64,000 bases of DNA, from NCBI GenBank assembly GCA_030324005.1, contig JARDVH010000137.1:18936011-19000010 (forward strand), in the 5' to 3' direction. Under the pieces are notes generated by a model that was not told the DNA's origin, did not search any database, and was given only the letters and a program-made list of their open reading frames with translations. Shown here piece by piece: positions 2,415 through 43,466 of the stretch; the stretch's first letter is position 1, and each line of letters opens with the position of its first letter. A program made the translations under genes and the position numbers. This DNA comes from Negaprion brevirostris (Eukaryota).

Positions 2415-2975
2415 AGTAAAATGAAGTCTACCTGCTGTCTCGTATATTACATTCAACTGAAGCATCATTATGTCATCCAGGAACAGTGTCTTCTCAGTGC
2501 GACTTAGTGTAGCTGTATAGCCAGTACTGGTTGGAGAAAGATCATCTATGTTGTAAGAAGGATAATTTAATGGTAAAAAACAAAGTGGGGAAGACGCATT
2601 GGCCATTGGATTCCAGCAGCAGCCACGAGCCCGACATTTCATCATGTCAATCAGCTCATTGAAAGCACAATCAAACCTACTATTAGTATCGATATCACAC
2701 TGAGAGGCCTGGAGTCGATTCTTATTCAATGATAGCTTGCTCAATGTTTTCGAGGTCTCTGTTCTGTTTTTATAATTTGGACATTGCCATAATAGGTCAA
2801 ATTTAGATTTCCCCACATTAACAGATGTAGAAATGATTAGAAACTCTGGTGTCGAATAACTATGGTAAGTGATCGCACCAGCTAGAATAATAGCAAGGAG
2901 GATTGCTCCATATTTAAGAGCAGTAATTGCCTGTACCCTTGGTTTAGCCACAGATGAAAGTCCCATGAACTCCAT
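2415..2975 (-). CDS. GAA: Lysosomal alpha-glucosidase-like, copy 2, first coding exon (human exon 2 equivalent; exon spans 2415-3067)
   Basis: 187 codons with a hydrophobic signal/anchor (YGAILLAIILAGAITY) and trefoil domain (CDIDTNSRFDCA...CRARGCCWNP...PLCFLPLNYPSY). Ends GRLHFT|gtaagt, the same position as GAA exon 2. Polypyrimidine acceptor ctctaccctttag ends at 3068. Confidence 0.9.
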
Positions 2976-6071: not shown

Positions 6072-6589
6072 CTATTCTCTCTCCACAGATGCTGTCAATC
6101 TGTGGAGTTTTCTGTCTGTCAATTGCCATTGCTTTTGTTTGTTCCCTACTGCTCTCACCCACCCCAGATCAACGGGACTATAAAGTCTCTTCTGATTCCT
6201 GTTGCTGGGAAGCACCTCATAATCACCTGATTGGTCCACAACATTAAGTACCTTCAAAATTAAAATCCATCAGTTTGAAACAAGAAATGATAGCGCTTAC
6301 CCTCTCAAAAACTAAACGCTGAGATAAGATTCTTGTTAGTGGAATTAAAGGTTATGGGTTCAAAGGAGTCAGGTATCGNNNNNNNNNNCTGGAGGGGCTG
6401 AATGGCCTCCTCCTGCTCGCCCCCGTGTAGTCTCGGTGCTGCTGATTCTGGGGTTTGGTAAAAATGGAAACTACTGCAGGTCTGTCCCCATCTGTGGAAC
6501 TGCACCCACTCCAATCTTTTGCAGCTATTCCGGGACACAGTGACCCCTCGTCCCCTTGAAAACATTAAAACAGGAACAAGTTCCGAGTC

Positions 6590-6890
6590 ATTTCACGTGT
6601 GCAAAGGAGAGAAGCCAATCCTAATTGGCAACCAGGCATAAAATAAATAATTAGTCACCAAAACCTAAATAATATGGCGGCTATAGCCTCCCTCAGGTCC
6701 GTTTCACAACCCCGGGGGCCGGGGGGGGGGGGGGTGGTAAGCGACTCCCCCTCTCCACTCCCAGCATTGACGCTCCGAACTCAAAACCCCCCTCCCCAGA
6801 CAGTGGTATGGTCCAGCACCAGGCCTGCTGCGGCCCGGGTTGTTGTTGTTTCTTAGCAACAGGGAAGATGGCGGATGAGGACAGGTAACT
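6590..6890. promoter_or_regulatory. GC/CpG-rich putative bidirectional promoter for GAA copy 2 (minus) and a plus-strand gene remnant
   Basis: Most CpG-dense non-repeat patch of the window. TCACGTG E-box 6593-6599, CCAAT/ATTGG ~6613-6628, ATGGCGG motifs at 6674 and 6868, RFX-like GTTTCTTAGCAAC 6848-6860. Confidence 0.6.
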
Positions 6891-7108
6891 GGACATGAGC
6901 ATTCCCAATCTGTACACAACGCTTTCCTCTCACATATATAAATAAATGTCATTGTAATTTCACTGCTTGCCAAATCAGAGATTTCAGAATTATTTCGGGA
7001 TTTTATTTCATATTTGTCTTCACATTCCCAGACCCGTCAAAACTCAGTATCATTTGACAATGTCTGATGTCTGTTTTAACTTGAGTCAACACTGGCATAT
7101 CAAAATCA

Positions 7109-7258
7109 TGATGTGGAGATGTCGGTATTGGACAGGGGTGGGCAAGATGTGAGGTCACACGACACCAGGCTATAGTCCAACCTGATGAAGGAGCAGCATT
7201 CCTCAAAAGCTTGTGTTTTCAAATAAACCTGTTGGACTATAACTTGGTATTGTGACCT
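7109..7258. mobile_element. Short fold-back Penelope pseudo-LTR remnant with degenerate hammerhead core
   Basis: atgtggagatgtcggtattggac..cacgacaccaggctatagtccaac-ctgatgaaggagcag..caaaagcttgtg..gttggactataacttggtattgtgac. Confidence 0.65.
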
Positions 7259-7929
7259 CTCATATAAAAATCAGGTGCTTCCTATAATAGGTGACCTATC
7301 GGCAACACCAGNNNNNNNNNNNNNNNNNNNNNNNNNNNNNNNNNNNNNNNNNNNNNNNNNNNNNNNNNNNNNNNNNNNNNNNNNNNNNNNNNNNNNNNNN
7401 NNNNNNNNNNNGTTTCAACCCAGACAGTAATTAAAAGTTTACCTGAACATAACTTTACAGAAGAGATGAAAACAATATTCCCCCAGCGAGCACAGCAGAG
7501 GTGATTCACCAATCGGATGGTGAGACGAATCATGGTTGTGTGTACTGAGGATATGTAACTGGAGTGAAATTAATCAGAGTGCAGCCTCCAATAAATTAAT
7601 GTAGAAAGAGCTGGATGATGAATGAGTAAAAGATTAATATGAAAAAGGAGAACACTGACTGAGAAGGCATTCCCAAGATAATGAAATCTTTCACATACTG
7701 TATCTTTTGGAGTTATTTCAGAACAAACCTGACCGCCATGGTGTGATGATAAATTATTTAGAATGCAGAATGCCAGACACTTTGAAACCTTTGGGACTTG
7801 TCCCAGAACAATGACAATACCTCAACAAAATATTTAAGAATGAAGTCCAGGAGTTTTATAACACTTTTTGAATGAAACCAAGATGAAGAGCCAAGGTACC
7901 GTAGGTAGGATACCACCAACAATGAAAAG

Positions 7930-8203
7930 AGATCAGGCAGAAAGATACAAAAGTCTGAGAACACATACCAACTGACTCAACTACAGCTTCTTCCCTGCTG
8001 CCATTAGACTTTTGAATGGTCCTACCATATATTAAGCTGATCTTTCTCTTCACCCAATCTGTAACTGCAGCATTACATCCTACATCCTATCCTTCTCCCC
8101 GACATACTCTACGAATGGTATGTTTTGCCTCTACAGCACTCAAGAAACAATACTTTTCAGTGCATCCCAATACATCTGACAATAATAAATAAAATCAAAT
8201 AAA
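7930..8203 (+). mobile_element. Rex1/Babar-type LINE 3' end
   Basis: Matches the 3' end of the 26814-29650 LINE and ends in an aataataaat..atcaaat tail. Similar pieces at ~44893-45095 and ~47900-48031. Confidence 0.65.
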
Positions 8204-11087
8204 TCTTTTTATATTATGTCTGGCCTTTTGTTCCAAGGTGGTATATTAATCAAGGAGTTCCAACCCAGAAGGAATAAGTAAGCAGTTTGTCATGGTCATC
8301 TAATCTCTGAAATAAGATTAGAACCTTTAATCACTCTCAGTCCTTAGTTATTGTTAGTAACTTATTTAGGACAGAATTTATGCTGTTTTTGTGACAATAG
8401 CAATTTTTATTGTGAATGTTTCCTGTTAGCACACTCCACATCTGAGATGCATAATGATTATCGATTGTGCCATTTTTTTGCAGACTTAATACTAATTTTT
8501 AGAAAAATCTATATAAATGATGGACTCAGAAGAGAAATAATTCCACTGAATTGCATTATGTGGGAAGAATATCTTTCCAGTTGCTCTTTTGCCAGCTGTG
8601 AAATCATGAAATTTTGCTCTAACAATATCATGAATAATAACGGAGACTGTGGATTGCCCTTCTCATTAAAAGAAAACACTTGGTAATGCCATATCAAGGG
8701 AGGGGGCTTCCGAACAAGATCTCTGCCTGTCTTTAACCAGCAGCGGCACTGTATAAAACATTTGAGGGATAATAATTGTACATTCAAAAACCTTTTAAAC
8801 AGGTCAATTATGGGAAAATTAACAAAATGCACAGATCTTAATAGTCTGCAGAGAAAACACATTTCCCTCATGATGTTAGCAGGCAGAGCACTTCATGTAG
8901 AAACTTGAGAAATCTCCATTTTTAGCTTTTGTCAGCTGTTTGATAAGTACATGCTCACTTAAATGAAAAAGCAATTTACCCTTTAAATGTTTTTTCATTA
9001 ACATGGCTTCTGATGAAGTGCTTCTAGGAACTCTGAAAAACCACCTTTCAAAGCTATTGGAGAAGCCAATCCTGGAGCTCAGGGAATAAATAAGTGCAGT
9101 AAAAAGCGCTTTTAATGCAACACATGTAATCAAATAATGTAAATTTTAGTGCAGTGATTTAGCATTCAGCAACATTTGAATTTCAGGTCTCCAACAATAT
9201 TAGTTATGTACAAACAGCAGTAATGGAAACTTATTCATCAGAAAATTGTTTGTTAGATATAACTCTTGACTACAGATTTTTTGGCTTGCCTATTATCTGC
9301 AATCCAAACACTAAGCATTTTCCACATAGAGGAAGTATTAGCAAGCATGACTTCCAAAACTGAAAAAAAACTATTAAAAATTAATTATATATTTTATATT
9401 GGTTTTAAATGGGCATATCTCTTTTTAGCATTGCATTATGCAATTATTTTCAACTTCAACAGAATTCCGTTTCCTTTAGTAACCATGCTGTGTTTACCAT
9501 TGTGCCCACAGTGTTTAAGTGATGAAGGGAAGCTACATTTCCATAAACACTAATTCTGTGCTCCAAAACGTTTTCTATACAGATTAAAACAAATTCAAGT
9601 TAGTAATTAGTGACCATGCTGTTTTGTCTCTAATACTTGGAGAATGAAAAAGCACACATGGACCCTAGTTGCTTGGTGGGGTTTTGACACAGGAGTGATT
9701 CTTTACAACAGTCTCTTGCCCAGATTCAAGTGGAATTTGAAAAATACCTTTGCTCATGAGTTTCTGCAAAGAAAAAACGGATTATTTGGCAGGTATAAGT
9801 AATCTTTATCAAATGTCATAAGCCAGAACAAATAGGGAGCACGAAACAGTCAGGTTAATGGTTTATTTAATCATTTTCTACAGTTACATAAAACAAAACT
9901 CTCATTGAAATCAGTGGCTTACCGGTTAAAGAAGTTTCCCTGCAAGATGTTTAGATGTATTTGTTTTTGCCGTATATGTAGAAATGCAAATGATGAGACA
10001 GACTCCTGATATTTGTTTCACATGCCATGCTGGATTCAAATTAAGCAAATACAAATAATTGGACCAGTTCTAGCTAGTTCTCTTCTGCATGATGCAATTG
10101 AAATGAAGGAAACACTTCTATTTCATACACAGTGACACTTTCAATAATTGGCATGTAAGCAGAGAAGAACATTCCAAGATAATTTACAGACATAATCAGG
10201 CAAAAATGAAGCCAAGATGCAGATTGAAATATTAGGGTAGGTAACTAAAAACCTTGTTAAAAAAGTTAGTTTTAGAGAATGCCTTGAAGGAGAAGAGAGA
10301 AGTAGAAGGGCAGAAACATTCAAGGAGGGAATTCCAGAGCAGGATAACCCAGCCAGTGGGATGAAGGAAACTGGGATATAGCATTACCATTAATAGTTTT
10401 GAGCTTGAACATTATGATGGTTGATCAAGCCTCACTGAATTCTGATAAAGCTCCACCAGCACGCACTCTTCATACACTTAATCATATCATGTTTCAGCAT
10501 TACCTAATTCTCCATTCATGTTCTTTATCAATAACTTAACATGTACACACCTGATTTATCCTTTAATCGATCCTTAGCTGATAAACAGTTATATAAATTC
10601 ATTAAATATTGAAGGCCTTATTACTTCCTGTCTGTGTGGGATGCAACCTTTCCACCATCCAAGGCCTTATAAGAACATAAGAAATAGGAGCAGGAGTAGG
10701 CCATCTAGCCCTTTGAGCCTGCCCCGCCATTCAATAAGATTATGNNNNNNNNNNNNNNNNNNNNNNNNNNNNNNNNNNNNNNNNNNNNNNNNNNNNNNNN
10801 NNNNNNNNNNNNNNNNNNNNNNNNNNNNNNNNNNNNNNNNNNNNCCATCCGGTCCTGGGGACTTGTCCACAATCAGTCCCTCCAGTCTGTCGAGCACCGC
10901 CTCTCTAGTAACAATAATGTATCCCTCTGTCAGATATAGCCTACCAAGCTTGCTTTTGCATGCAGCTGTTTATGCCTGACCAATATGGCACTTTGCAGTC
11001 ATCTAATCATTGAAATGTCACAGATCTCCTGGGTCCCCTTGCGAAGTTAAAAGATAAATAGTTGTATTGTTACATACCACCCACCTG

Positions 11088-12700
11088 GAACATAAGCAAC
11101 AGGAGCAGAAGTAGGCAATTAAGCCCCTTGAGCCTGGTCTGTCATTCAATAAATTTACGGCTGATCTTCTACTTCAACACAAGCTTTCCCGAACTATACC
11201 CATATTTCATGATATTTTTAAAAAAGAAATCTATGGATCTGTCTTGAACATATTCAATGATTTAACTTCCACAGCCTTCTGACACAGGTAATTCCAAAGG
11301 TTCACCATTCTCTAAGTGATGAAACTCCTCCTCATCGAAATCCTAAATGGCCTGCTCTTTATTCTCAGACTGTGTCCCCTGGTTCTAGATTCCCTCCTGT
11401 TGATCTTTAAGAATTTTGTATGTTTGAATGAGATAATCTCTCATTCTTCTAAACTTTAGAGAATAATGCCCAGTCTATTTAATCTTTCCTTGTAGGACAA
11501 CCTCTCTGTCCCAGGAATTGGTTTAGTGAACATTCATTGTATTTCTATGGCAAGTATATTTTTCCTTAAGTAAGGAGTCCAAAACTGCACACAATGCTCT
11601 GGGTGTGATCACATCAAGGCTCTTTTACTCCTATACTCAAATCCCCATCATAAAGACCAACATACCATTTGCCTTCTTAATTGCTTGCTGTTTCTGCATG
11701 TTAGTTTTCATGGAACACTCAGGAACAAGGAAAAGTTTATTTATTTGTCACAGTTAAAGCTTACAGTTACACTGTAATGAAGTTAGTGTGAAATTCTCCT
11801 TGTCGCCACAATCCAGCACCTATTTGAGTCAATACACCTAACCAGCACACCTTTCAGAATGTAGGAGGAAACCAGAGCGCTCGGAGAAATCCCATGCAGA
11901 TAAGGGGAGAACTTGCAAACTTCCACAGACAGTGACGCAAGCCGGGAATCAAACCCAGCCCCTTGGCGCTGTGAAGCAGCAGTGCTAACCAATGTGCTAC
12001 CACGCCGTCCCAAGTCCCTTTGAAATTCAACATCTGTCTGTCCTCATTCAAGAAATATTCTATTTCTGTTTTTCCTACCAAACCTCACACATCTCCACAT
12101 CATGTTGCATTAGCCAAGGTTTTGCCCACTCACTTAGCCTCTCCCAATCCCCTTGAGGTGCTTTTGCACCCTCCTCACAACTCTCACTTCCACCTAATTT
12201 TAAATCATCCTGGAGTTATATTTTACCTCAACATCCAAATTATTGATATAGATTGTGAATAGCTAGGGCCCAAGTACTGATCCAATACTGTACCCCACTA
12301 GTCACAGTCTGCCAAAATGAGTCATTTATCCTTACTGTCTGTTTTCTGCCCATTCTGTTCTCAATCCATGCCAGTATACTACCCAAATTCCGTGCACTCT
12401 ATTTTTGTTCACTAACCTCTTGCGTGGAACCTTATCAACAGCGTTCTGAAAATCTCAATATATCATGTGCCTTCTGGTTCTCTTCTTTCTGTTCTACTAG
12501 TATAGATAAAAAGATCCTCAAAAGACCCCAGCAGGTTTGTTAAACATGTTTACCTTTCATAAATCTATATTGAACCTACTCAATCCTACTATTATTTTCT
12601 ACCTGTTCTGATACCAAATTCTTTATTATAAATTCTGGCTTTTATCCTACGACTGATATTTGACAAATAGATCTCTAGTTCTCTGTTTCCTCTCTTCCTC
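11088..12700 (-). mobile_element. Degraded CR1-type LINE interrupted by a SINE
   Basis: 3' end aacataag..aggagcagaagtaggc..agcccc plus RT-region remnants resembling 32310-33490. Confidence 0.6.
11735..12010 (-). mobile_element. HE1-type tRNA-derived SINE
   Basis: Reverse complement reads gacggcgtggtagcacattggttagcactgctgcttcacagcgccaagggg..gggtttgattcccggcttg (A/B boxes). Confidence 0.8.
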
Positions 12701-13852
12701 TTTGTACTTTTTACATTAGTTACAGTAACTGTTATATCAAAGGAACAATTAAAAAGCTAGTGGGATTAGCTACAATTGAAAAGTTACTGAACGTAAATAA
12801 GGAAGTGATTATTAAGAGAAATCTAGAAGAAGAAGAGACCATCAGCATCTGCATTTTCCCTCTAAATCGTCAACTATCTTGACTTGGAAGTGTATTATCA
12901 TTCCTTCATTATTGCATGGTCAAAATCATGGAATTCCTTTCCTGACAATACCGTGGGTACTTTCATCACGAAAGTTTCAAGAAGGCAACTCACCACCAAC
13001 ATTTCAAAGCCAACCCTCCAGATTGGGCTGGAGTCTCCAGGAACTGAACATCAAAATCTAGGACACAACTCTGAATAGAATTGTTGAGGCATTAAAAATG
13101 ATTTTTTTTTTGCCATTTTCTTTGGACATTTCTCTTTACTAAATACAAGAATATTGAAAATTGAGGGAAAATGGTTCATTGGCTAACAGTCAAGCATCAT
13201 CCAACTGGATCGTCTTTTTGTTTTCAAATTAGTGTAGGGAGATGGTGTGTCACAGGGATGGATATGTTGACAGGTGAATAGCCAGAATGTAGGGGCAAGT
13301 ATGTGATGACAGCGCTCGGAATACATTTAATCACAGTTTGGCAAACCTATCTGTCTCAAGGGCAATTAGGGATGGACAATAAATGTCGGCTTTGGCAGTG
13401 CCACCAACATAGACCATGAATATATTGAAAAAAATCAATTGCAGTATCATATGATTAATCACTTCCTAATATGAATATTTGTTTAAAAAATATTTTGCAC
13501 TCTTCCGATCCACTACCTTATTTTTACTTATCATGTTTTTGTCACAGTTTTGTCCATTATAAATGAGTGTTCATATTTAGAATCATGCTACAATAACGCC
13601 CTCCCCCCAGTGATGGTCTATCAGCTCCTCAGCCTGCTCTTGCAAATTCAAGTGACGTGAAGAGAGTATTAGAAGTTGCATAAAACTAAAATATATTGTT
13701 TGTGGTTACTGATCCAGAAGTAGCAGTGGGAGCAATTTGAGATGGCTTAATGCCTTTGTAATAACAATGAAACTATCAGCATAGGAGTAGCACATATTGC
13801 TGAGGCAGAGAGTTGGGAGTTCAAGCACCAGCATGAACTTGAACATATAAAG

Positions 13853-14912
13853 CAGGCCTATCCAATATGCAGCCCATGGGCCAGCATCTAACCTGGCCTA
13901 TGGAAGGGAGAATGACCACCAGGGTTGGGGGAGGGGTGGTGGTGGTGGTGGGGAAGGGTTGAAGAGAGTGACTAGTAAGCAGATGGAGTAAGTATTTAAT
14001 GGTGAAGAAGAGTCTGTTTGTTCATGGAAGAGTGTGGCTGCCAACTGGGCAGAGAACGTCTGCCAGTGGGATGGTGGTCATGATGTGGATATGCCGGCGT
14101 TGGACTGGGGTAAACACAGTAAAAAGTCTGACAACACCAGGGTTTAGTCCAACCGATTTATTTGATAATAAACCCACAAGCTTTCGAGGGGTCACCCTNN
14201 NNNNNNNNNNNNNNNNNNNNNNNNNNNNNNNNNNNNNNNNNNNNNNNNNNNNNNNNNNNNNNNNNNNNNNNNNNNNNNNNNNNNNNNNNNNNNNNNNNTT
14301 TTAGTCCACCCGATTTATTAATAACAAATAAATCGGTTGGACTAAAACCTGGTGTTGTCAGACTTTTTAGTGGGATGGTGAGACAGTGGCCTGATTATGT
14401 GGTGGTGGGGGAGAGCAGCTATTGGTGCAGGGACACAAAAGTGGCTGCTGATGTGGGAGAGAGAATAAATGCTGCTGGGACAGAGCATGGCTGCTTATGA
14501 GTGAGAGTGTTTGTGTGACTGAGTGAGAGAGGTGTGCGTGTGTGTGAGTCAACGAGTTGTGTGTGTGTGTGTGTGTGTGTCTGGCTCACTTCCCGTTTCA
14601 GGGTTTGCACTCACCTTCACCCCCACACAGCAACTTACACAGTGTAAATGGGTAAGGATGAGTCAGCACCTTAAGATTGATGATGAGTCAGACAAAACAA
14701 TTTGACCCCCCTCACACTCTTAATGACTTTTTTTTGAAATTGTTTTATTTTTGCTTAGCAAGTTGCTTCTTTTCTTCATGCCTACACACTTTATTGAAAT
14801 ACATGTTTAATGTTTTGCCAAACCTTAACTTTCTGAAATTTGCTCATTGGATCCTTGAGTGAGAAAAAAAATTGAAGTGTGGCACCTTGCACAAAATGGT
14901 TGGACAAGGCTG
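13853..14912. mobile_element. Probable non-autonomous hAT-like element containing a Penelope insertion and a (GT)n tract
   Basis: Imperfect TIRs CAGGCCTATCCAA / TTGGACAAGGCTG. No convincing 8-bp TSD. Confidence 0.4.
14080..14368. mobile_element. Fold-back Penelope pseudo-LTR insertion
   Basis: Inverted arms around a gap, internal hairpin 14299-14349, 12-bp duplication agtgggatggtg at 14065-14076 and 14369-14380. Confidence 0.75.
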
Positions 14913-15379
14913 ATTCAAGATTATGTTTCAGTACCGGGCGACTCTTGCATTGCCAGAGGTGCTAGCTTTAAGATATGATACTAAAGCCTCAAAGAGACAT
15001 AGAAAATAACAGCAGGAGACCATTCAGCCCTTTGAGCCTGCTCCGCCATTCATTATGATCACAGCTATTGAGTCCAACTCAATAGCCTGATCCTTTCCTC
15101 TCCATAGAAAATAGAAGCAGGAATGTAAAAGATCCACAGCATATCTTCATTTCAGAATTAACAAAACAGATTCACTGGCCATCTCATTGTTATTTGTGGG
15201 ACCTTCGCAGACCACTGTGTTTGCCTAGATTGAAACAATTTCTATACATAAGTATTGGCTTTAGGTGTTATGAGGACACAATAGGCATTGTATAAATGCA
15301 AGTTTTTTATTTATAATTGCTATTATTCCTCAGATGTGTTGGTGTTAATTCCAGCAGTAGGTTTCATGACAACGCCACA

Positions 15380-15952
15380 GGCAAAATTTTCTCTGATATC
15401 AGCAAAGTAAGCCCACTGCAGCATTGATGGCCTTTCACATCATATAGGGCGGGACCTCATGCAAAAAGGCAGCAGGCAGGGCTTTCATGACATATCACTG
15501 GCAGGTGGCCTCTGAATCACATCAGCACTCCAAAGATCTGGGTGCCATTTTTAAAGGCCCCCATAGCACACAACATGCATACTAGGGAACAATCTTCACC
15601 CAGGTGCACCCAATAGCAGCACCCTCTGCCCCTGGAACTGCACTATGTGCACATTGCTCTCCTCAGCACACTGTTCATCAGATATACGCCTTCTAATACC
15701 AGTTGTGTATCCCGCCGCTTTGACACCACACACATTTTTTGACGTGGGGTATGATTCTGGCATATTGGCCCAGAAATGATATGCGAATATATAACCATTC
15801 GGTTCCTGACATCGAATGGTGACAAACATGTGCTGCCACTGACAGTGGGAGATGATGATCACTTCATACTCTTACATGAAACGCAACTTTGGCCATCTAG
15901 GTCTATTTTCCATTCCTACTGCCAACATGAATGGGAGCAGAAAATCCCGGCC
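15380..15952. mobile_element. MITE-like element (Harbinger-type ends)
   Basis: Ends ggcaaaattttct / agaaaatcccggcc. Shorter relatives at ~16180-16300 and 25001-25125. Confidence 0.5.
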
Positions 15953-16487
15953 TATAATCTTGGAAAAATAAGAACTGAAGTACATAAAAATGAGATTGTT
16001 TACCTAGTCAGGTCCTGTTCATTTTATACAATAGACTATGGCAGACACACAAATTTAATCTGACTTCATAAAAAAATGACTGATTTATTCCACAAAAGTG
16101 AAAAATGGGAAACATATCCACAAATAAAGAAGCATGGAAATTTCTCAAGGTTTTGGTATACACTTGCTATAAAACTCCTTGGTGGGATTTTCTGTCCACA
16201 GTTGCTCCAAAACTAGAAAATCCTGCCTGAGGTCAACGAACCTTTCCATAGTCCACCCCCCCCCGCCCATGGCTGGCAGGACGAGAAATTTGCACCCCAC
16301 CCCGTGTACAAGTTTAGCTTACAGACAAGGATCAGAAAAAGAAACAAAATTATCACCCCCTCCATTTACAGTTTCATGGACATTATAATTGTGATAATTT
16401 CTTATTGACATGCTATTTGTATCATCATATTCCTGTTGCCTTCTTAAAAGAAAGCAGAGCATTATTCTGAAAATGTATTTAATTAAG

Positions 16488-16978
16488 GTCACCACACTAT
16501 CGAAAGGACGTGAAAGCTTTGTTGAAAGTGCAAAGAAAGTTCACCAGGATGCTGTCTGGTCTTGAGATGTTAACTATGAGGACAGGTTGAATAAACTAGG
16601 ATTGTTTTCACTTGAAAGACGGTAGCTGAGGGGAGACCTGATAGAGGTCTACAAGACTATGAGAGGCAGAGACAGGGTGGAAGTATCAATTACAAGGGGG
16701 CACAGATTCAAGGTGAGAGGGGGAAAGTTTAAGGGAGATGTGTGGGGTAAGTTTTTCACGCAGAGTGGTGGGTGCCTGGAACGCGGTGCCAGGGGATGTG
16801 GTGGAAGCAGGCACATTAGCAACATTTAAGAGGCATCTGGATGTGTGCAGGAATATGGAGGAAATAGAAGATTATGGACTGACAAGGCAGACTTTTTTTA
16901 AGCTAGAGCATCATGATGGGTACAGGCTTGGACGGCGGAAGAGACTGTTCCTGTGCTGTACTTTTCTTTGTTCTTTGT
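16488..16978 (+). mobile_element. CR1/HER1 LINE 3' end
   Basis: ..RDLIEVYKTMRGRDRV..; FSRRVVGAWNAVPGDVVEAGTLATFKRHLD; ends in a ttctttgttctttgt tail. Confidence 0.8.
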
Positions 16979-19194
16979 ATTCGTCATGATGTGGTCAATG
17001 TGTTGATGTTGTGCACAAGTTTTACCAATGCTTTAGGATTTAAAGGGGAATTGCTTGCAATACAAATAGCATTTTCAAATGATAGCTTTGCTTTGCTACA
17101 AATCTAATTGAAAACACAAAGAAACCTCATATACAGCAGAGATTTGCATAGAAATGGACTTGGTTGTACATCCTGCTGAAATGTTCTACTGCAATGGTTG
17201 CAGGTCGATTAAGTTGCTGGGAAACAGGATTGCAACTCTCCCCTTTTAAACATTCGAGGAACTCTACAGGATGTTTGTATGAATGGAAGATATTAGTTTT
17301 CTGCAATAATTATTGAGACACATTATTACATGATTGGAGAAAATGATAATAATTTAGGGTTAATAGGTTCAGATTTGAATTTCAAATTGGCACTTAAAAG
17401 CTGTATAGATAACAATACATGTTAGAGTTCATATTTAGAGTAATTTCAGCTGCCAAAAATATGTTTAATGAGTTCTCCAAAATAGTTCCCAAGCTGGCTA
17501 TTTGAAATGCAACCTGTCCATGTCTTTAATTCAGAATACATTGCAGCTTGTAGTAATCAAAATCTCTTCCTTATCTTATCTCTTGTTACCAGTATCAAGG
17601 TGCTTTGAAATTTGCTCTCAGTAGTAAGTGAAAGCTATTGTGTCTCCTATTCGCACACTTTACATAAGTGAAATGATTATGACTCTCTCCTAATCTACCT
17701 GCAAATAAATCTTTTTTGATCTCTGTGCTCCCAGATGAGTCATTCCAATCACCTTCAACTATTCGCTTTGTCTACTTGGGAGCCAAGCTGCACAAAGAAA
17801 CCACAAAATAATGAAACCTTTGGAAGACTACAATGCCAATTCCAACTGTAATTGACTTTATGATTATAGTGTAATTTTTATCATTATTAACCCATCAACA
17901 TGTAGAAATGTGAAACGCTCAATAAGGCTGCTAAGAATTTTACCAACTTACCAAGTATTAGAATTGGTAACTTCTGTCTATCAATGGAAAAAAACGTTCC
18001 AGTTCTTTTTAAAATATGTTCACAAGTATGCAGTGAATATGTATTCCACAATCAGAAGGAATGGCATGTGGTTAGGAGCTCATTATCAGACATACAAAGT
18101 CTCAGTGCAATAATTTCATGGCAAAGAACCTAAGGATAGAACACATAATATGAATTCTTACCACACATATAACAGATATCTCCTCCTCCTTTCGGTACTA
18201 CGCGCTGGTACCATGGTGGATGACCATGGACTTCCATTGGATTGATCCGTTATTATGTATAGCAAAGTTTTGCAGTAGTTTACTATTGCCTTGTGCAGTA
18301 TGGCTGACCAGGAAACACTCTTACTCTCTCTGCTGCCATATTGGAAATATTTACAGGCTAGTAATCAACCTGTTTGGCATCATTATAAACACAATTTCCA
18401 TGGCCATCAAATCCAAAGTAGGATTTGAATCTGAGTTTCAGGTCCAGAGGTAGGGACACTACCCACTGTGCCACAAAACAGACATCATTGTACCCATCTT
18501 AATTTATTGCTATCCTATCTATGGAAAGAGAATGTCATTGGCAAGGCCAGCACTTATTGTCTGTTCGTAATGCTCCCGAAAAGGTGGTGAACCAGGTCAT
18601 TTAACTGTTGCAGTCACTTCCATTGCAGTCCTTGGAGGTTGTGAGAAAGCTTTAAGGCCCAGGCAGCTGAAGGCTCACTCACCAATGGGGTTGTGATTAA
18701 AACTGGAGATGCTCAAGAGCACAGGACTAGAAGAGCCCACATATCTCAAAGGATTACAGGGCTTGAGGATATTACTGAGATAGGGAGAGTGATTGACCTT
18801 TCTAACTACTGTCCATGTGAAATCTTTTGTCAGGGTTACTGCCCCCTTCCTGGTTCCTGGCAGGGGTCACAGCCCTTACTGACACTCCTGGTTGAGATTA
18901 GCAAACAGTATTACTCCATAGTGTCCTTACTACTACACTACTACATTCCTTTTCACTTGTGCCATTTGAATGCTCTTTTCCACAGTGCTATGTTCTGTTT
19001 ACTCATCCACCATGCAAACTTTGATGTCAATAGCACAAGCTGCATGCAGTAATCTTATGCCTGTTGTATGAATAAAAGCTGAGATTGTTCCAGCACTGCA
19101 CCTGGGATCCCCTTAACTGCCTAACTCAGTACACTCACCTGTCCCTGACCACTATCTAGGCTCGTATCATTTTCTAATCTTAGGAGACTGAGCA

Positions 19195-23161: not shown

Positions 23162-23224
23162 TCAGAACCAAGTTATTGTGAACTGTTCTCCCATTAAAAT
23201 AGACAGATTCTGCAAAGTCAGCAC
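23162..23224 (-). CDS. GAA: GAA copy 1, exon 20 (terminal)
   Basis: cag|VLTLQNLSILMGEQFTITWF-TGA, matching the GAA C-terminus LLMGEQFLVSW. Confidence 0.92.
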   Translation of the reverse strand: MLTLQNLSILMGEQFTITWF

Positions 23225-23816
23225 CTGAGAGAGAAAAAAGGGAAAATCAGATACATGACATGAACAAAACCACCAAATTTGTTTGTGATCTTGATTCTGA
23301 AACAAAGATATTTTTTGTAGATTTGATGTACAACACTATAAAACTGAATTGAATTCCTTTCAGTTAAAGAATTGAAGAAGATGAATGATGTAAATCACAC
23401 AGAACTCAGATTTACAGCCTGAACTTGCCACCTACCACCTTTCTTCACCAAGTTTGCTTATTCCAGGCAATGCAGAAACAGGGCTGCAATGCAAGTTTAG
23501 GAAGAAGAAACTGACAACGATTCTCATTCTGGACCATTGTCCATGATTCCAGCATGCATGCAGGGTGAAATCAACCCCAACAGTGATGTTCTCATCACTG
23601 TTTATTGTCTCAGCTCACCATTGACGAATGGAAATTTGTGTAAGATACCCTACTGTCTATGACACTATACAACCCAGCAAGGGTCAACTTCTTCATGAGA
23701 CAACAAATTTAAAGGAATAAGGAATTTATCCAAAACATTTCCATAACTAAAAATGTATTTTATTTGTGTTTATCAAGATGTCTAAAATGCTATTTAGACA
23801 CAGCGCGTATCCTCAC

Positions 23817-23969
23817 CTTTGTGTCTGTCCGGTAGGAGAAGTCTGAGATCCAGAATCCATTCACAGAAATTTTCTGTGGGGCAAATGGAACTCCGAAGAT
23901 AAGGACACCGCCTAGTTTAAGGCCATCTATTTGACTGTTCAGATGGATTATCTCACTGAACAGCATGTT
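23817..23969 (-). CDS. GAA: GAA copy 1, exon 19
   Basis: 153 nt, NMLFSEIIHLNSQIDGLKLGGVLIFGVPFAPQKISVNGFWISDFSYRTDTK, cag/gtgag. Confidence 0.92.
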
Positions 23970-24635
23970 CTGTGAGGGGTCAAGACAAACAGAATAGGTG
24001 CCACATAGAATCCAATGTCCTCATATTACACGTCAATTTCTCAAGCTACTGTATAAATAGAACGCATTACAATCCAAAAAAGGTACATAAACAAAACATT
24101 GCTTTGGGACTGTTTTGCGTCTTAAAATAAAGTTCATAATTCTGTAACATTTCTAATTCAAAATTAATTTAAATATACAATCCTAAAACGAAATATCTAG
24201 AAATTACATATTTAATTATAAGTTAGGGTCAATTAAGTCTCTAAGGTTGCCTTTAACATAAAGCTTTCCATTTACTTAAAACTAGTTTCCACCTTAGGAT
24301 TCCACCAATAATCTCCTATCATCAGCATTCCTATTGTAGCTGAGGGGCTTGGTTGTAAATCAAGCAGATGTTCTGGTGCTGTTGATATTCTTACATGACT
24401 GCACAAGGTGCAGAGGTATTGCTAGGCATAGTTCAGTCCCATTTCTATTGGTTGCCACATTACATTTGGTTTACACCAACAACCCTTCTTATGGATTTGA
24501 AGTTTCAGGTATTAAAAAAAGCATTAAAACTCTTTGATCATAGACTTATATGTTGTCATTTTATGTTATTCAGAGGACTGTTTCAAGTTTATATTCTGTG
24601 CAATCAATATTAATAATGAAGTGTTTGAAACTTAC

Positions 24636-24800
24636 ATTTTTGGCTAGGAAGATAATTTCAGTATAATCCCCATTTTCATAACTCAGCAGGCTGTCACCAT
24701 CATCCCAGAAGAGTTCTCCTCTAGCAATTCCCTGATCAGACAATGCGACAATCAGACCAAATGGGTTTCCTCGAGAGGCAGTAGTTGTGGTGTTGGGCTC
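24636..24800 (-). CDS. GAA: GAA copy 1, exon 18
   Basis: 165 nt, EPNTTTTASRGNPFGLIVAL..ARGELFWDDGDS..IIFLAKN, aag/gtaag. Confidence 0.93.
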
Positions 24801-26214
24801 CTTGATTGAATGCATATTTACATATAATCAACGTATGCAACCATATTATGACAATTAAGGACATAGATTTACATTAGTACTAAGTTGTCACTTCTGAAGA
24901 TATTTTATGCTGATAATGTGCTTTGATGACACATGTGACAGCTGTTCTCCAAACAGAGAAAAACTCTTGTCCTGGAAAATATGGAAATATACACTTTACA
25001 GGCAGAATTTTCCCATCCCACCCACCACGAGAATCACAGCAGGCGGGACACAGGCCATGCAAAAGTCCATTGACCCCGGTGGGATTTTCCAGCTCTGGGG
25101 TGAGCAATGCCGAAAAATCCCGACTATCTTTTATATTGCCAGGTGACAGGATGAGGTATGGAAAATAAACACATTTTCCTATTGGCCTTCCAAATGAGCT
25201 CACAGTCACTTGTAGCATGTGACAAAGTAAAATAATCAGAGCAACATTTGGTGATCAACAGGGTCTCAATGCCAGTGCTGCTGTCCTGGAATCCGAATGT
25301 ACAATACAAATAGATATTGAGATCAAAGTGCTTTGAACAGATGGCTGCTGAATCCTGGTTCAGAAGAAATAAATTTGGGAACATAAATTCCAAGAAAATG
25401 TGCACTGATTGTTTTGAATAAGATGTGCATCTGCAGCACACTGCTGCCACCATCCATGTATTCGAGAAGGTTTAGAAGGTTGTGGCCAGGATCAGCACCT
25501 TTTCAGTTTTCATCTTCATTTCCTTCAGTAATCTATGATATATCCAATCCAGATTGGGTGATTTATCCAATTCAATTTACTGGCAGCCTTTCCATTAACT
25601 CATTCAATAGCAACAATCTTCCTGTTTATGGTAGCTTTGGTCAAATCCTCTCTCATAACAAACACAGGCACAAAATATTTCAGATGCGTTTTCTTCCTTT
25701 ACTAATAAATTTTCATTTTGGCCCCTCATTGGTGCCATCATTCCTCTGACAACTTATTTACTGTTGAAATACCTACAGAAGACTTTGGGATTCTCTTTTA
25801 TATCAGCTGCCAATCTATTTCTNNNNNNNNNNTATACTAAACAATGCAGTACATTTAGTAAGTGAATAGTATAACATTTTAGTTAGGCAATCTTAAAAAT
25901 CTGTTAGTTCAAAGGATAAAATATACTACATGTCAGACAGCGGGTGAGTGTGAGTTTCATATTACAATCCAACATATGAGCTAAATGCGAGGCTTGGCTA
26001 ATCCAAACAAACAGCATTTACAAAATGTTAGAATTTCAGACATATAGCTTTATAACGTGACTGTTGTTATGCTCAAGTTCAACATCATCAGGGTAGAAGA
26101 GGAAGTGGAAGAGGAAAACTGGAAGAGGAAAATCTAATGAGCTCCAACACTCGTTTTGCACTGCTTCCCAACTTAAAATTCACCTCCACAAATCACCTTC
26201 TTGGACACTTTTAC

Positions 26215-26313
26215 CTGTGTAGGCAAAATGCAGCCTCCTCGTAAATGAACATTTATTGTATCCAAAGGTGCTTGCAGTATAATGTACTGGCCTTTACTAC
26301 ATACAGCAGAACC
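26215..26313 (-). CDS. GAA: GAA copy 1, exon 17
   Basis: 99 nt, [33 protein letters not shown], tag/gtaaa. Confidence 0.92.
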
Positions 26314-26925
26314 CTAAAAATTGAAATACACATGATCAGAGAAAGAGGTACTAAAATAATAACATTTATAACTACATATGCACATATAAATAATACATTA
26401 TGCACTGAGAAGAATTAGTTTGACTTTAGTTAATCCAGTTCATTATTGCTGGATTAGAATGGAGTAGATAATTTGGGTTGAGTTAAAAAATTTACTGGAT
26501 ACTGCACGTAAACTGTTTTGTATTTCACTGGACCAACCCTGGAGTAAAACATTTTTGTGACTCTTCTCGGGTTTCGTACAAGCAAAATAAAACTGCTTAT
26601 TGTAGACTAATATTACTAAGCAGACAAAATGAAGTGAAACAAAAAGATGAGCTGGACAGACGCACAGACTTTTCGATCTGTTTTGAACGGTATCTCAGAT
26701 CAGGCAGTGGCACAGTGTGAGAAGGTTCACCCAGTATCCTCAAACTATAACCCCTAGTTCTGGACTTCCCCACCCTTGGGAACATTCTTTCTGAATTTAT
26801 TCTGTCTAACCCTTTGATTTGATTTGATCTGATTTATTATTGTCACTTGTATTGATATATACTGAAAGATATTGTTTTTTGCGCACGATACAGACAAAGC
26901 ATATCAAGCAGAGAAGGACAGAGTG

Positions 26926-27051
26926 TGCAGTATAATGTACTGGCCTTTACTATATACAGCAGAACCCTAAGAATTGAAATACACATAATCAGAGAAAGAG
27001 GTACTAAAATAATAATAAATTTTGTAACTACATATGCACATATAAATAATA
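26926..27051 (-). repeat. Local duplicate of the GAA exon 17 5' half plus acceptor and intron (source 26273-26395)
   Basis: tgcagtataatgtactggcctttacta(c/t)atacagcagaaccctaa..gcacatataaataata is present at both sites. Confidence 0.92.
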
Positions 27052-27946
27052 ATTGCAGTCTGTGGGTTAGGTAGTGTTACAGTCATAGCTAGGGTATAGA
27101 GAAAGATCAACTTAATATAAAGTAGGTCCATTCAAAAGTCTGATGGCAGCAGAGAAGAAACTGCTCTTGAGTTGGTTGATACATGTCCTCAGACTTTTGT
27201 ATCATTTTCCTGACAGAAAAAGGTGGAAGAGAGTATGTCTGAGGTGCGTGGGTTTTTTTTTTTTATTTTGCTGGCTGTTTTTCCGAGAAATGAAGACAGT
27301 GTCAATGGATGAAAGGCTGGTCTGAGTGATGGACTGGGCTTCATTCATGGCCCTTTGTAATTTCTTGTGGTTTTGGCAGAGCAGAAGCCATTACCAAGCT
27401 GTGATACAACCAGAAAGAATGCTTCCTATGGCGTATCTGTAGAAGTTGGTGAGAGTCATAGCTGATATGCAAAATTTTCTTTGTCTTCAAAGAAAGTAGA
27501 GGCATTGATGGGCTTTCTTAACTATAGTGTCGGCATGGAGGGACCAGGACAGGTTGTTGGTGATTGGGATACCGAAAAACCTGAAGCTCCGGGCCATTTC
27601 TGCTTAGTCCCCACTGATGTGGGTAGGTGCACGTTCTCCACTTCCTGAAGTTGACGACTATTTCCTTCGTTTTGTTGATATTGAGGAAGAGATTATTGTT
27701 GTCACACCAATTCCTCTATCTCATTCCTGTACTCTGTCTCGTCATTGTTTGAGATGTGACCCACTCTAGTGGTATCATCAGCAAACTTGAAAATTGAGTT
27801 GAAAGGGAAGCTGTCCATACAGTCATAGATGAATAAGGAGTATAGTAAGGAGCTGAAGACAGCCTTGTGGGGCACCAGAGTTGAGGATGATTGTGAAGGC
27901 GGTGTCATTGATTATCTTTACTGATTGTAGTCTGTGGGTTAGGAAG

Positions 27947-28225
27947 AGGGCAGCATGGTGGCACAGTGCTTAGTAGGGATCCAAGTGCAATTCTCAGCTT
28001 GGGCGACTGTGTGTGTGGAGTTTGCACATTCTCCCCATTTCTTTGTGGGTTTCCTTTTGGTGCTCTGGTTTCCTCCCACAATCCAAAGGACATGCAGGTT
28101 AGGTGCTAATTCTCCCTCAATGCACCCGAACAGGTGCCAGAGTGAGATGACTAGGGGATATTCACATTATCTTCTTTGTCATGTTAATGTAAGCCTACTT
28201 GTGACACTAATAAAATAAAACGTTT
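27947..28225 (+). mobile_element. HE1-type SINE nested in the Rex1 LINE
   Basis: gggcagcatggtggcacagtg..gactgtgtgtgtggagtttgcacattctcccc..cctacttgtgacactaataaa. Confidence 0.8.
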
Positions 28226-28372
28226 TAAAAAAGTTCAGGACCCAGTTGCTGAGGGTGGAGCTGAGCCCGAGGCCACGGAGCTTGGGGATTAATTTTGTAG
28301 GAATAACGGTGTTTAAGTCTGAGCTGTAGTCAATAAATAGGAGTCCGACATAGGTGTCTTTGTTATCTAGGT

Positions 28373-28503
28373 GTAAAAAGTCTGACAACACCAGGTTTAA
28401 GTCCAACCGATTTATTTGACCAAATAAATTGGTTGGACTTAAACCTGGTGTTGTCAGACTTTTTACTGTGTTTACCCCCGTCCAACACTGGCATATCCAC
28501 ATC
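28373..28503. mobile_element. Hairpin Penelope pseudo-LTR end with 12-bp TSD
   Basis: Near-perfect palindrome 28373-28466; ttatctaggtgt at 28363-28374 and 28504-28515. Confidence 0.85.
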
Positions 28504-29959
28504 TTATCTAGGTGTTCCAGGGTTAAATGCAGGACCAGGGAGATGGCATCCGCTGCTGCACTGTTAAGCGAACTGTAGTGGATTCAGGCAAGCTAGGAGG
28601 TCGCAATTGATTCATGCCATGACTAACTTTTTTGAAGCACTTCATAATGATGGATGTCAGAGCCACCGGACGATAATCATTAAGGCACGCTGCTTGGTTT
28701 TTCTTTGGTATCAGGATGATGGTCGTCTTCTTGAAGCAAGGAGAAACCTCAAATTGGTGTAAAGAAAGGTTGAAGTTGTCCAGGAATACCCCCCATCAGC
28801 TGGTCTGCAAAGGATCTGAGTGCTCATTCGGGTGCCCTATCCAGGCCAGTCACTTTCTGTGGGTTGACCTTCGAAGGCTGCTCTGACATTTGCAAAGGTA
28901 ACCTCAGATACAGGTTTGTCTGAGGCTTCTGAGCTGGAGGGTGTGCTCTCACTGACCTCTTGCTCAAAACAGGCATAAAATGCATTGAGCTCAGCAGAAT
29001 GGGGTGCTTTGGTGCTAATTCTACATGCCTTCATCTTGTAGCCTGTAATATCTTGCAGACCTTGCTATAGTTGGCGGTGTGGCTAGCCTGGGACTCTAGC
29101 TTAGTCCGGTACTGTATTTTGGCATTTTTGATGGATCCCCGTACATCGTACCTGGCTTTCTTGTATAGGTCGAGGTTGCCGGATTTGAACACCTCAGACT
29201 TAGGCTTCAGAAAGCAGTGGATATCCCTGTTCATCCATGGTCTCTGGTTGGGAAATGGACGGATTTGCATCTTTGGCACACAGTCTTCTATACGCATACT
29301 AATGAAGTCAGTTACTGTAGTGGCGTACTCTTTCAGATTGGTTGCTGAGTTTTAAAATACTGACCAGTCCACTGACTAAGTAGTCTCATAGGAGATCATC
29401 TGATACCTCAAACCAAAATTGCACGACTTCCTTTAACGATTCTCCTGTTTCAGCTTTTGCTTGTAAGATGGGAGCAGGAGCACAGTCTTGTGGTCTAATT
29501 TGTCCAAGTGCGGGCAGGCAATAGAGCAGTAGGCATATTTGATATTTGTGTAGCAGTGGTCTAGGATGTTTTGGGCCTCTGGTGGATCAGGAGACATTTT
29601 GATCGTATTTTGTAGGATGCTCTTGAGCTTGGCCTGATTGTAAGTTTCCATGAGATCCCCTCTCGCTTTCTAAATGCCAGTGAATATAATTCTAACCAAC
29701 TTAGTCTTTCCTCACATCACAGAACTGCCATCCCAGGAATCAGCCTGGTAAACCATTGCTATACACCCTCTATAGCAAGGACATCCTTCCCCAGGCAAGA
29801 ACACCAAAACTGCACACAATACGCCAGGTGTGGTCTCACCAACGCCCTATATAATTGCAACAAAACATCCCTGTGCTCAAATCCTCTCGATTTGAAGACC
29901 AACATATCTTCTTTACTGCCAGCTCTACCAGCGCGCTTACTTTCAGTGACTGATGCACG

Positions 29960-30452
29960 AGGACAACAAAATCTTGCTGATTTTGTACAGTGTATGCAAG
30001 AGGGTTTCCTGACACAGTATGTGGATAAGCCAACAAGAGGTGGGGCCACATTGGACTCAGTACTGGGTAATGAACCGGGCCAAGTGTTAGATTTATTTGT
30101 GGGAAAGCACTTTGGAGAAAGTGACCACAATTCGGTGTCCTTCATTGTTGCAATGGAGAGGGATAGGGTCACATGGCAGGGCAAGGTTTATATTTGGGGC
30201 AGGGATAATTATGATGCGATTAGGCAAGAATTAGGAAGCATAAGATGGGAACAGAAACTGTCAGGGAAAGGCACAAATGAAAAGTGGAGCTTGTTCAAGG
30301 AACAAATACCACGTGTCCTTGATCGGTATGTCCCTGTCAAGTGGGGAGGAAATGGCAGAGTGAGGGAACCATGGCTCACAGAAGAGGTCGAATGCCTTAC
30401 CAAGAGGAAAAAGGAAGCATATGTAAGAATGAGGAAACGAGGTTCAGTTCGC
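29960..30452 (+). mobile_element. CR1/HER1 LINE ORF2 fragment (endonuclease C-terminus and linker), running into a gap
   Basis: FVQCMQEGFLTQYVDKPTRGGATLDSVLGNEPGQV..GESDHNSVSF..EPWLT. Confidence 0.85.
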
Positions 30453-31789
30453 ANNNNNNNNNNNNNNNNNNNNNNNNNNNNNNNNNNNNNNNNNNNNNNN
30501 NNNNNNNNNNNNNNNNNNNNNNNNNNNNNNNNNNNNNNNNNNNNNNNNNNNNNNNNNNNNNNNNNNNNNNNNNNNNNNNNNNNNNNNNNNNNNNNNNNNN
30601 NNNNNNNNNNNNNNNNNNNNNNNNNNNNNNNNNNNNNNNNNNNNNNNNNNNNNNNNNNNNNNNNNNNNNNNNNNNNNNNNNNNNNNNNNNNNNNNNNNNN
30701 NNNNNNNNNNNNNNNNNNNNNNNNNNNNNNNNNNNNNNNNNNNNNNNNNNNNNNNNNNNNNNNNNNNNNNNNNNNNNNNNNNNNNNNNNNNNNNNNNNNN
30801 NNNNNNNNNNNNNNNNNNNNNNNNNNNNNNNNNNNNNNNNNNNNNNNNNNNNNNNNNNNNNNNNNNNNNNNNNNNNNNNNNNNNNNNNNNNNNNNNNNNN
30901 NNNNNNNNNNNNNNNNNNNNNNNNNNNNNNNNNNNNNNNNNNNATGGGGAGAACATGCAAACTCTACACAGACAGTGACCCGAACCGCAGTTGAACTCAG
31001 GTCCCTGATGCTGTGAGGCAGCAGTGCTGACCACTGTTCAAAGTTTCCAGGGGTTGCTCCCTTACCATCTGGCATCACCCTTGAAAATGCTTTACTTCAT
31101 TCTAGCTCCTGTCCCTGTGTCCTTATTTGGAAGATCAGGATGGTGATTGTGCACAGTCCTCCAAGTGTGGTCTGACCAAGACTCTCTTAGCCACTGTGCA
31201 GGTCTGTTGTTGGAAGTTTGTGTGATGTTCTGGACAATGTCTTGGCTGGGATTCAGCCCACTGTCTGGAGTAAATTAAGGAAGGCTGAAGGGGAGTTGAC
31301 AAGCTGCTTTCACTGTTGACTATTCTACTACCGCTGATGTACGCAATTTGTCTGGCAACATGACTCTGCAGACTTAGGTCCGGAGTACATTATTCATCGA
31401 ATAACATTGATCTGACTGTTAGTATGCATGACTTTCAGACTGTGCTGGGTAAGAGGCTAACATTTGGGAAGCTTTCCAAACTGGTTTCAGCCAGACAGCT
31501 GACTGTTCGACAAAACCCTGAATGTTCTCATTTTGAAACTCTGAATCTGAAAGAACACACAGGCAGGAGAAGGCCATTCAATCCCTGAAACCTCTTCCAC
31601 TATTCATCTGTGATCTACATCCTCACTCCATTCACCCACTTTCCTTCCATATCTCTTCATACCCTTATTCGCAAGAAATCTAACTGTCTTCGATATAAAA
31701 TCATTAATCAGGAGAGGCAATGGCCTGGTGATATTATTGCAAATTCAGAAACTCAACTAATGTTCAGGTTTGAATCCCCACCATGGCCT

Positions 31790-32300
31790 AGAATCCCCAC
31801 AATCCCTACGGTGCAGAAGGAAGCCATCCGGCCCATTGAATCTGCACCAACCACAATCTCACCCAGCTGCTAACCCCATAACCCCACGCATTTACCCTGC
31901 TAACACCAAGTGGCAATTTAACATGGCCAATCAACCTATCCTGCACACCTCTGGAGTGTGGGAGGAAACCAGAGTACCCGGAGGAAACCCACGCAGACAT
32001 GGGAGAACGTGCAAACTCCACACAGACATCCTGTTACTTGGGGGCATAACTATAAGGCTCATGGTGGGAGATATAGGAGGGATGTCCAAGGTAGACTCTT
32101 TACTCAGAGAGTGGTTGGGGTGTGGAATACACTGCCTGCTGTGATAGTGGAGTTGGACACTTTAGGAACTTTCAAGCAGTTATTGGATAGGCACATGGAG
32201 CACTCCAGAATTATAGGGAGGGGATAGCTCGATCTTGGGATTGGACATAGCTCGGCACAACATTGAGGGTCGAAGGGCCTGTACGGTGCTGTAACGTTCT
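31790..32300. mobile_element. SINE remnant (minus) followed by a CR1 3' end (plus)
   Basis: ggaggaaaccagagtacccggaggaaacccacgcagac; FTQRVVGVWNTLPAVIVELDTLGTFKQLLDRHM. Confidence 0.65.
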
Positions 32301-32309
32301 ACCTTTCTA

Positions 32310-33490: not shown

Positions 33491-33528
33491 ACATCATATG
33501 ACATCATCTCACATCTTATAACACTTAC

Positions 33529-38233: not shown

Positions 38234-38443
<210 letters not shown>

Positions 38444-43247: not shown

Positions 43248-43466
<219 letters not shown>

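What the first reader, a model, noticed from the sequence alone, without database searches (positions are those of the whole stretch)
6868..18113. Hidden decayed multi-exon gene on the plus strand between the GAA copies
Seen: a Kozak-like AAGATGGCG start with a 17-nt coding exon, a phase-compatible second exon (MADEDRRDENNIPPASTAE), and then unique blocks between repeats that read as protein in one frame. Examples: SDSLQQSLAQIQVEFEKYLCS*VSAKKKRIIWQ (9693-9792), YIKGTIKKLVGLATIEKLLNVNKEVIIKRNLEEEE (~12730), YQLLSLLLQIQVT*REY (~13620), SIKLLGNRIATLPF*TFEELYRMFV*MEDISFLQ*LLRHIIT*LEKM (~17205-17350), YQGALKFALS|NESFQSPSTIRFVYLGAKLHKE (17593-17847). Many stops are TGA/TAA, one transition away from CGA/CAA, and transposons interrupt some exons. 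Inference: a pseudogenised large gene, mostly invisible to the ORF track. I cannot name the family.
Basis: inference. Interest (0 to 1): 0.7.

Follow-up and report, generated by a model that had tools for sequence, protein, structure and literature searches.

The report
Dead CCDC40 stub from GAA duplication
This stretch of a shark genome holds a broken, cut-off copy of the front of the cilia gene CCDC40, likely carried along when the neighbouring lysosomal enzyme gene GAA was duplicated long ago; most of the other 'exons' are non-coding DNA, and the one oddity is that the shared promoter has changed far less than the rest.

Summary
All quoted peptides are in the sequence, but they are not one 11-kb gene. 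The window spans the joint of an old tandem duplication (unit about 70 kb) that doubled GAA. GAA sits head-to-head with CCDC40, so the copy took along the front of CCDC40: shared promoter, RFX-type X-box, exon 1 (MADED), and decayed copies of exons 8-9 (9007-9089, 9635-9848) with flanking introns, ending near 10.4 kb. CCDC40 itself, open in every sequenced exon, starts 74 kb further on. The stub lost exons 2-7 and three of four splice sites of exons 8-9, and carries frameshifts and stops. dS to its parent (0.41) matches dS between the GAA copies (0.42). The duplication predates the split from catsharks. Ordinary duplicated pseudogene, with one unexplained point: the X-box/exon 1/donor block is 96% identical to the parent against about 75% for introns. 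No RNA data were available.

The parts
2415..2975 (-). First coding exon of GAA copy A (trefoil domain); the gene runs leftwards out of the window
   Evidence: Pfam Trefoil E=4.5e-11; 80% to Carcharodon GAA-like; exon model
6301..6567 (-). Likely non-coding exon 1 and promoter of GAA copy A; donor GG|GTAAGC after 6301 is kept in both copies
   Evidence: 94% identity to copy B over 6390-6567; donor; exon status inferred, no RNA
6848..6860 (-). RFX X-box match GTTGCTAAGAAAC, identical in the parent CCDC40 promoter
   Evidence: Strict RYYRYY-N-RRNRAC match (consensus from PMC4168999)
6868..6884 (+). Copy of CCDC40 exon 1 (MADED+AG) with intact donor GTAACT; parent reads MADEES
   Evidence: 6840-6933 has 4 differences in 93 columns to the parent
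7106..7260 (.). Interspersed repeat, followed by an N gap at 7312-7411
7412..7930 (+).
   Evidence: Only itself in the genome; no match to the parent or to proteins; 10 letters inserted at 7741-7742 in a relative
7941..8200 (.). High-copy repeat (LINE-tail-like)
8306..9006 (+). Copy of the CCDC40 intron before exon 8 (73% identity)
9007..9089 (+). Decayed copy of CCDC40 exon 8 (PLMKRFQEALKNHLSKQ...): acceptor AG reads GG, donor GT reads AT, 1-base deletion
9635..9848 (+).
   Evidence: parent exon hits CCDC40 in PDB (E=5e-12) and NCBI
9849..10413 (+). Copy of the CCDC40 intron after exon 9; last detectable CCDC40 homology, before exon 10
   Evidence: 67% over 9860-10200; 10234-10413 reached by 2 of 200 shuffles
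10414..12975 (.). Interval holding the duplication joint, filled with repeats and a gap; includes the unmatched YIKGTIKK block (12733-12837)
   Evidence: joint not placed more finely
13549..18300 (.). Non-coding 3' flank of GAA copy B, paralogous to the 3' flank of copy A about 70-71 kb away; holds the YQLL, SIKLLGN, YQGALK and ESFQ blocks, a repeat at 16474-16976 and a second X-box match at 17213-17225
23162..58569 (-). GAA copy B, 17 of its 19 coding exons; the first two lie beyond the window's right end
   Evidence: 957-aa open model, canonical splice sites

Best explanation
The region is a truncated, decayed duplicate of the 5' end of the cilia gene CCDC40 joined to the non-coding 3' flank of a GAA gene, likely left by one old tandem duplication of about 70 kb. 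Shown: GAA and CCDC40 lie head-to-head; two GAA copies lie in tandem, open in all sequenced exons; promoter, exon 1, exons 8-9 and their introns of CCDC40 are present a second time in the window and broken; from 13.5 kb on the window matches the flank behind GAA copy A. Inferred: unequal crossing-over, with one break in the CCDC40 intron after exon 9 and the other about 17 kb behind GAA, copied GAA whole and CCDC40 only in part; the stub could never make the full coiled coil, lost about 30 kb (exons 2-7) and drifted. The promoter blocks likely stayed conserved because GAA copy A still needs them.
For: Collinear self-alignment at offsets of 63-74 kb from -57 kb to +7 kb and of 103-105 kb at 8.3-9.8 kb. 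Parent exon hits CCDC40: PDB 9fqr E=5e-12, 8j07 E=1e-8; 16 chondrichthyan CCDC40 proteins, best 96%. The closest of them maps on the parent in 20 collinear exon hits with no stop; residues 836-874 are unplaced and a 4.6-kb gap lies there. In 6800-18300, all 16 proteins hit only 9030-9851 at E<0.5. Stub vs parent, 86 codons: dS 0.41, dN 0.18, ratio 0.43; GAA A vs B, 689 codons: dS 0.42, ratio 0.12. Relatives B and C (about 98% alike) carry further frame-breaking indels at 9053/9055 (B), 9770/9771 (both) and 17208 (B). A tree test rejects GAA A+B as one clade (p-AU 0.0005); B groups with Scyliorhinus GAA 100/100.
Against: The dN/dS of 0.43 is somewhat under the roughly 0.55 expected for a copy neutral from birth (my estimate; small sample, gapped codons left out). 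The 6840-6933 block is 96% identical, far above introns and flanks (67-84%; binomial P 1e-5 to 1e-7), so the front of the stub is not drifting freely. The spacer 7412-7930 and the 12.7-kb block are unexplained. The joint is hidden under repeats. Stop-free runs of 35 aa or more are slightly in excess (9 of 200 shuffles). The genome-wide search with the parent exon returned only the parent and not the stub, so it is too blunt to exclude other decayed copies.
Confidence: 0.9

Rival explanations
1. The stub is dead as a protein gene but alive as a regulatory unit: the X-box, exon 1 and 5' splice site still fire a short RFX-driven non-coding transcript, or tune GAA copy A in ciliated and germ cells.
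For: 4 differences in 93 columns over X-box, exon 1, donor and the first 50 intron bases; 10 in 170 over the GAA side; less conserved spacers (79%, 75%) between and after. Ccdc40 is listed among RFX2-dependent genes in mouse (PMC4745085, passages).
Against: The same elements may simply be part of GAA's own promoter, or have been homogenised by gene conversion between the copies; neither was tested. Strict X-box matches occur at 0.55 per kb here.
Confidence: 0.25
2. The 3' blocks (13.5-18.2 kb) are remains of a second, older plus-strand gene that was already dead in the GAA flank before the duplication.
For: The flank stays alignable at 76-80%; slight excess of long stop-free runs; the paralogue of the SIKLLGN block begins in a similar frame (RLIRLLGNRVEAVSF).
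Against: No Pfam hit over the cut-off in 30 frame pieces; no PDB hit for 17799-18200. These blocks were not run against the large protein collections.
Confidence: 0.08
3. One large unnamed multi-exon gene from 6868 to 18113, pseudogenised in place.
For: Good start codon and donor at 6868-6890; a phase-compatible AG..GT piece at 7461-7500; the peptides exist.
Against: The left and right halves descend from two different places 170 kb apart; exon 1 and the 9.7-kb block are CCDC40; the parent's true exon 2 is unrelated to 7461-7500.
Confidence: 0.02

Closest known systems
CCDC40 (FAP172; CCDC39/40 coiled coil of the axonemal 96-nm repeat; Pfam PF24161)
   Same: Exon 1, exon 8 and exon 9 copies, their introns and the promoter align to the CCDC40 gene 74-105 kb away.
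   Different: Covers only about residues 1-6 and 217-318 of a 1069-aa protein, with lost splice sites, frameshifts and stops; cannot encode CCDC40.
Duplicated (unprocessed), truncated pseudogenes left by tandem segmental duplication (class recalled from general knowledge)
   Same: Keeps introns and promoter, lies next to its parent, ends at the duplication break, shows relaxed selection.
   Different: Old (dS about 0.4, older than the split from catsharks) and keeps a strongly conserved promoter, X-box and first exon.
GAA, lysosomal alpha-glucosidase (GH31; PF01055, PF00088)
   Same: Both copies keep the 19-coding-exon layout; 618 of 689 compared residues are identical.
   Different: Two tandem copies under purifying selection, head-to-head with CCDC40; in human the two genes point the same way (recalled, not from a call).

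Membership tests
Duplicated (unprocessed) pseudogene of CCDC40 | Homology to a functional parent gene | tested here: met
Duplicated (unprocessed) pseudogene of CCDC40 | Introns and promoter retained (DNA-level copy, not a retrocopy) | tested here: met
   Intron copies at 67-84% identity, promoter aligned
Duplicated (unprocessed) pseudogene of CCDC40 | Disabling lesions | tested here: met
   Exons 2-7 and 10 onward absent; 3 of 4 splice sites of exons 8-9 lost; frameshifts; 2 stops in the exon-9 copy
Duplicated (unprocessed) pseudogene of CCDC40 | Relaxed selection on codons | tested here: met
   dN/dS 0.43 on 86 codons vs 0.12 for GAA A/B; small sample
Duplicated (unprocessed) pseudogene of CCDC40 | No protein product | not testable with these tools
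   Needs RNA and proteomics from the species
Functional CCDC40 | Open frame of about 900-1100 aa with the long coiled coil | tested here: not met
   Met by the parent as far as sequenced, not by the window copy
Tandem segmental duplication | Collinear, same-strand homology of coding and non-coding DNA in adjacent units | tested here: met
Tandem segmental duplication | A defined joint between the units | tested here: inconclusive
   Lies between 10413 and 12976, under repeats and a gap
RFX-driven bidirectional promoter | X-box close to the start, genes head-to-head | tested here: met
RFX-driven bidirectional promoter | RFX binding and divergent transcription | not testable with these tools
   Needs ChIP, CAGE or stranded RNA
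   7440-7920 and 13380-13700 single copy; 12640-12834 unmatched while 12835-13000 is a repeat; the 17-kb blocks were checked only within the 264 kb fetched

The most novel reading that the evidence does not exclude
For longer than the carcharhiniform radiation, selection has kept the RFX box, first exon and 5' splice site of a dead CCDC40 copy because they work as a regulatory module of the duplicated GAA promoter, putting one lysosomal glucosidase copy under the cilia/sperm programme or firing an antisense non-coding RNA. Sharks and perhaps rays would then carry two differently regulated GAA genes that have not been described.
Probability: 0.2. Interest if true: 0.5.

Novelty: new member of a known kind. 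Interest (0 to 1): 0.22.

Why it matters
As a pseudogene it is ordinary. It is useful as a dated marker of an apparently undescribed, old tandem duplication of GAA (the Pompe disease gene) in sharks, and as a natural experiment on a head-to-head promoter: the protein gene on one side died while the promoter core, X-box and first splice site stayed 94-96% identical, which points at the bases that the surviving GAA gene may need. It also warns that 'hidden genes' read across a duplication joint can be chimeras of unrelated DNA.

Tried and rejected
Direct searches with the window's blocks found nothing: Pfam (no hit over a cut-off outside GAA), PDB (0 hits; 2 weak viral glycoprotein hits, E 0.006 and 0.08, the better one leaning on a His tag, taken as chance), word-based protein search with 7722-7904 (none), HMMER over 1.84 billion representatives with one frame of 7722-8681 (7 hits, all on the repeat). 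My own candidate exons 7722-7904 (4 stops in 61 codons, about the random rate) and 8484-8960 (aligns to a parent intron) were rejected. No RNA holder was listed, so expression is untested. The ESM Atlas gave no result for the 7722-7904 piece. Lay-reads tables were cut (54 substitution rows and 2 indel rows not shown; 20 rows not shown), so no substitution-by-codon count was made on the relatives. Paper searches: CCDC40+GAA+shark (1 unrelated review), acid alpha-glucosidase/duplication/cartilaginous fish/gaa2 (1 Pompe database paper), CCDC40+pseudogene+elasmobranch (0), lysosomal alpha-glucosidase+shark+gene duplication (0), bidirectional promoter set (4 listings, not read). These cover only the open library. 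Earlier scan notes: none near, none by words, 8 on other pieces of the genome, not bearing on this locus.
Full report
Setting. The window is G000:C137:18936011-19000010 of a 2.69-Gb genome. I fetched 100 kb on each side; positions outside the window are given relative to it ('rel.'). The nearest named relative in the protein hits is the shark Mustelus asterias (91.5% over 837 aligned CCDC40 residues).

The observation. The stops in the covered parts are real: run X1 has identical letters over five long pieces, though it may be the source sample. The stop-type argument carries no weight: TAA plus TGA are 78% of stop triplets in the 7368 unique bases. The 7 hand-picked blocks have 6 stops in 177 codons against 10.6 expected, which selection of good-looking blocks can give. 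Direct searches of the blocks against Pfam, PDB and two protein collections found nothing relevant.

The duplication. Aligning the 264-kb region to itself shows a collinear same-strand duplication. Rel. -57 kb to +7 kb matches +13 kb to +81 kb (offset 63-74 kb), and 8306-9838 matches rel. 111199-114470. The unit holds a whole GAA gene on the minus strand. Copy B gives an open 957-aa model with canonical splice sites; copy A gives 941 aa, open in all sequenced parts, with 61 residues unread (exon 13 not found and set as N, part of exon 7 in a gap). dN/dS between them is 0.12 and dS 0.42 on 689 codons.

The parent. Head-to-head with GAA copy B, a plus-strand gene starts at rel. 81107 with the same sequence as window 6868. 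Its exon at rel. 114262-114480 hits CCDC40 in PDB and 16 of 146 candidate proteins, 14 named CCDC40 by a source and 2 hypothetical, all with PF24161. The Mustelus protein maps in 20 collinear exon hits without a stop; with exon 1 and one exon probably in a 4.6-kb gap that makes about 22 exons. Exon numbers here follow that map. In Scyliorhinus torazame the CCDC40 and GAA locus tags are consecutive on one contig, and a RabGAP-TBC gene follows about 75 kb past CCDC40, which fits the human TBC1D16-CCDC40-GAA block (recalled). CCDC39/40 set the 96-nm axonemal repeat; its loss removes that repeat in patients (PMC10266980, passages).

The stub. In the window the CCDC40 copy consists of promoter, exon 1 (6868-6884), intron sequence to 7051, then a jump of about 30 kb in the parent, then the intron before exon 8, exon 8 (9007-9089), the next intron, exon 9 (9635-9848) and intron sequence to about 10.4 kb. 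Exon 8 has lost both splice sites and one base; exon 9 has lost its acceptor and has about eight indels and two stops. The TGA at 9757 faces TTA in the parent; the TAA at 9819 faces CAA, and relatives B and C still read C there. On 86 ungapped codons dS is 0.41 and dN/dS 0.43: the same age as the GAA pair, with selection largely lifted. Searching 6800-18300 with all 16 CCDC40 proteins gives hits at E<0.5 only within 9030-9851.

The other blocks. From 12976 (clearly from 13549) the window aligns to the DNA behind GAA copy A. In the SIKLLGN block the two copies differ by insertions of 1, 2 and 6 bases; the acceptor and donor of YQGALKFALS are absent in the paralogue; the paralogue of ESFQ is broken by indels. 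Organism B has a further 1-base insertion at 17208. One 3-base insertion at 18023 in both relatives is frame-neutral. 86681-86744), and 7412-7930 matches nothing in the region or genome. The 12733-12837 block is also unmatched (46 and 25 of 200 shuffles reach its best scores) and abuts a repeat. About 1945 of the 11246 bases are local multi-copy repeats and 300 are N.

Age. With 10 elasmobranch GAA proteins (two partial ones and, in the second tree, the teleost left out), GAA-B groups with Scyliorhinus (100/100) and GAA-A with Carcharodon (85/95); forcing A and B together is rejected (p-AU 0.0005). So the duplication is older than the split from catsharks. Two Mobula proteins are only 75% alike and Hemiscyllium and Chiloscyllium 81%, which suggests two GAA copies in rays and carpet sharks too; the deep branches are unresolved, so a single pan-elasmobranch event is inference.

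Mechanism. Shown: the anatomy above. Inferred: a single unequal crossover, loss of exons 2-7, neutral decay. The order of truncation and deletion is not known.

What stays odd. The block from the X-box through exon 1, the donor and 50 intron bases has 4 differences in 93 columns, and the GAA-side block 10 in 170, against 67-84% identity for introns and flanks. The X-box matches the published consensus (PMC4168999, passages), and mouse Ccdc40 is RFX2-dependent (PMC4745085, passages); supplements were not read. Selection on the GAA promoter is the simplest cause; a live non-coding transcript or gene conversion are untested rivals.

Verdict. A duplicated, truncated CCDC40 pseudogene plus non-coding flank: a new member of a known kind. 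Four paper searches in the open library found no description of this duplication. Interest 0.22.

Noticed in passing
window 2415-2975 and 23162-58569 (and beyond both ends): Two tandem GAA genes under purifying selection (dN/dS 0.12). Copy A has lost the upstream ATG that copy B uses (MVSLHY...) and is predicted to start 16 residues later (MEFMG...). A further GH31 gene with the same exon pattern lies on contig C128.
   Followed up: partly
window 17014-17388: Non-coding block 80% identical between the two GAA 3' flanks, with an X-box match (17213-17225) in both copies; possible enhancer.
   Followed up: partly
window 7412-7930: Single-copy spacer of unknown origin with AG..GT pieces at 7461-7500 and 7722-7904; no match in the genome or in any protein search.
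   Followed up: yes
L008-L013 (rel. 81107-149050) and C137:19158677: CCDC40 is head-to-head with GAA and on the same strand as the next RabGAP-TBC gene, the reverse of the human arrangement as recalled; suggests a single-gene inversion in one lineage.
   Followed up: no
L008:6742-6956 (rel. 110742-110956): A 100-N gap splits CCDC40 exon 7 and repeats 17 bases on both sides with one difference; looks like an assembly artefact at a heterozygous site. A 10-N gap also sits inside a later exon (rel. 127964-127973).
   Followed up: no
proteins P0008, P0013, P0014, P0017: The acidic N-terminus of shark CCDC40 is built of similar short exons repeated in different numbers among species.
   Followed up: no
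window 14119-14371: Two SINE-like copies face each other as an inverted pair across an N gap.
   Followed up: no
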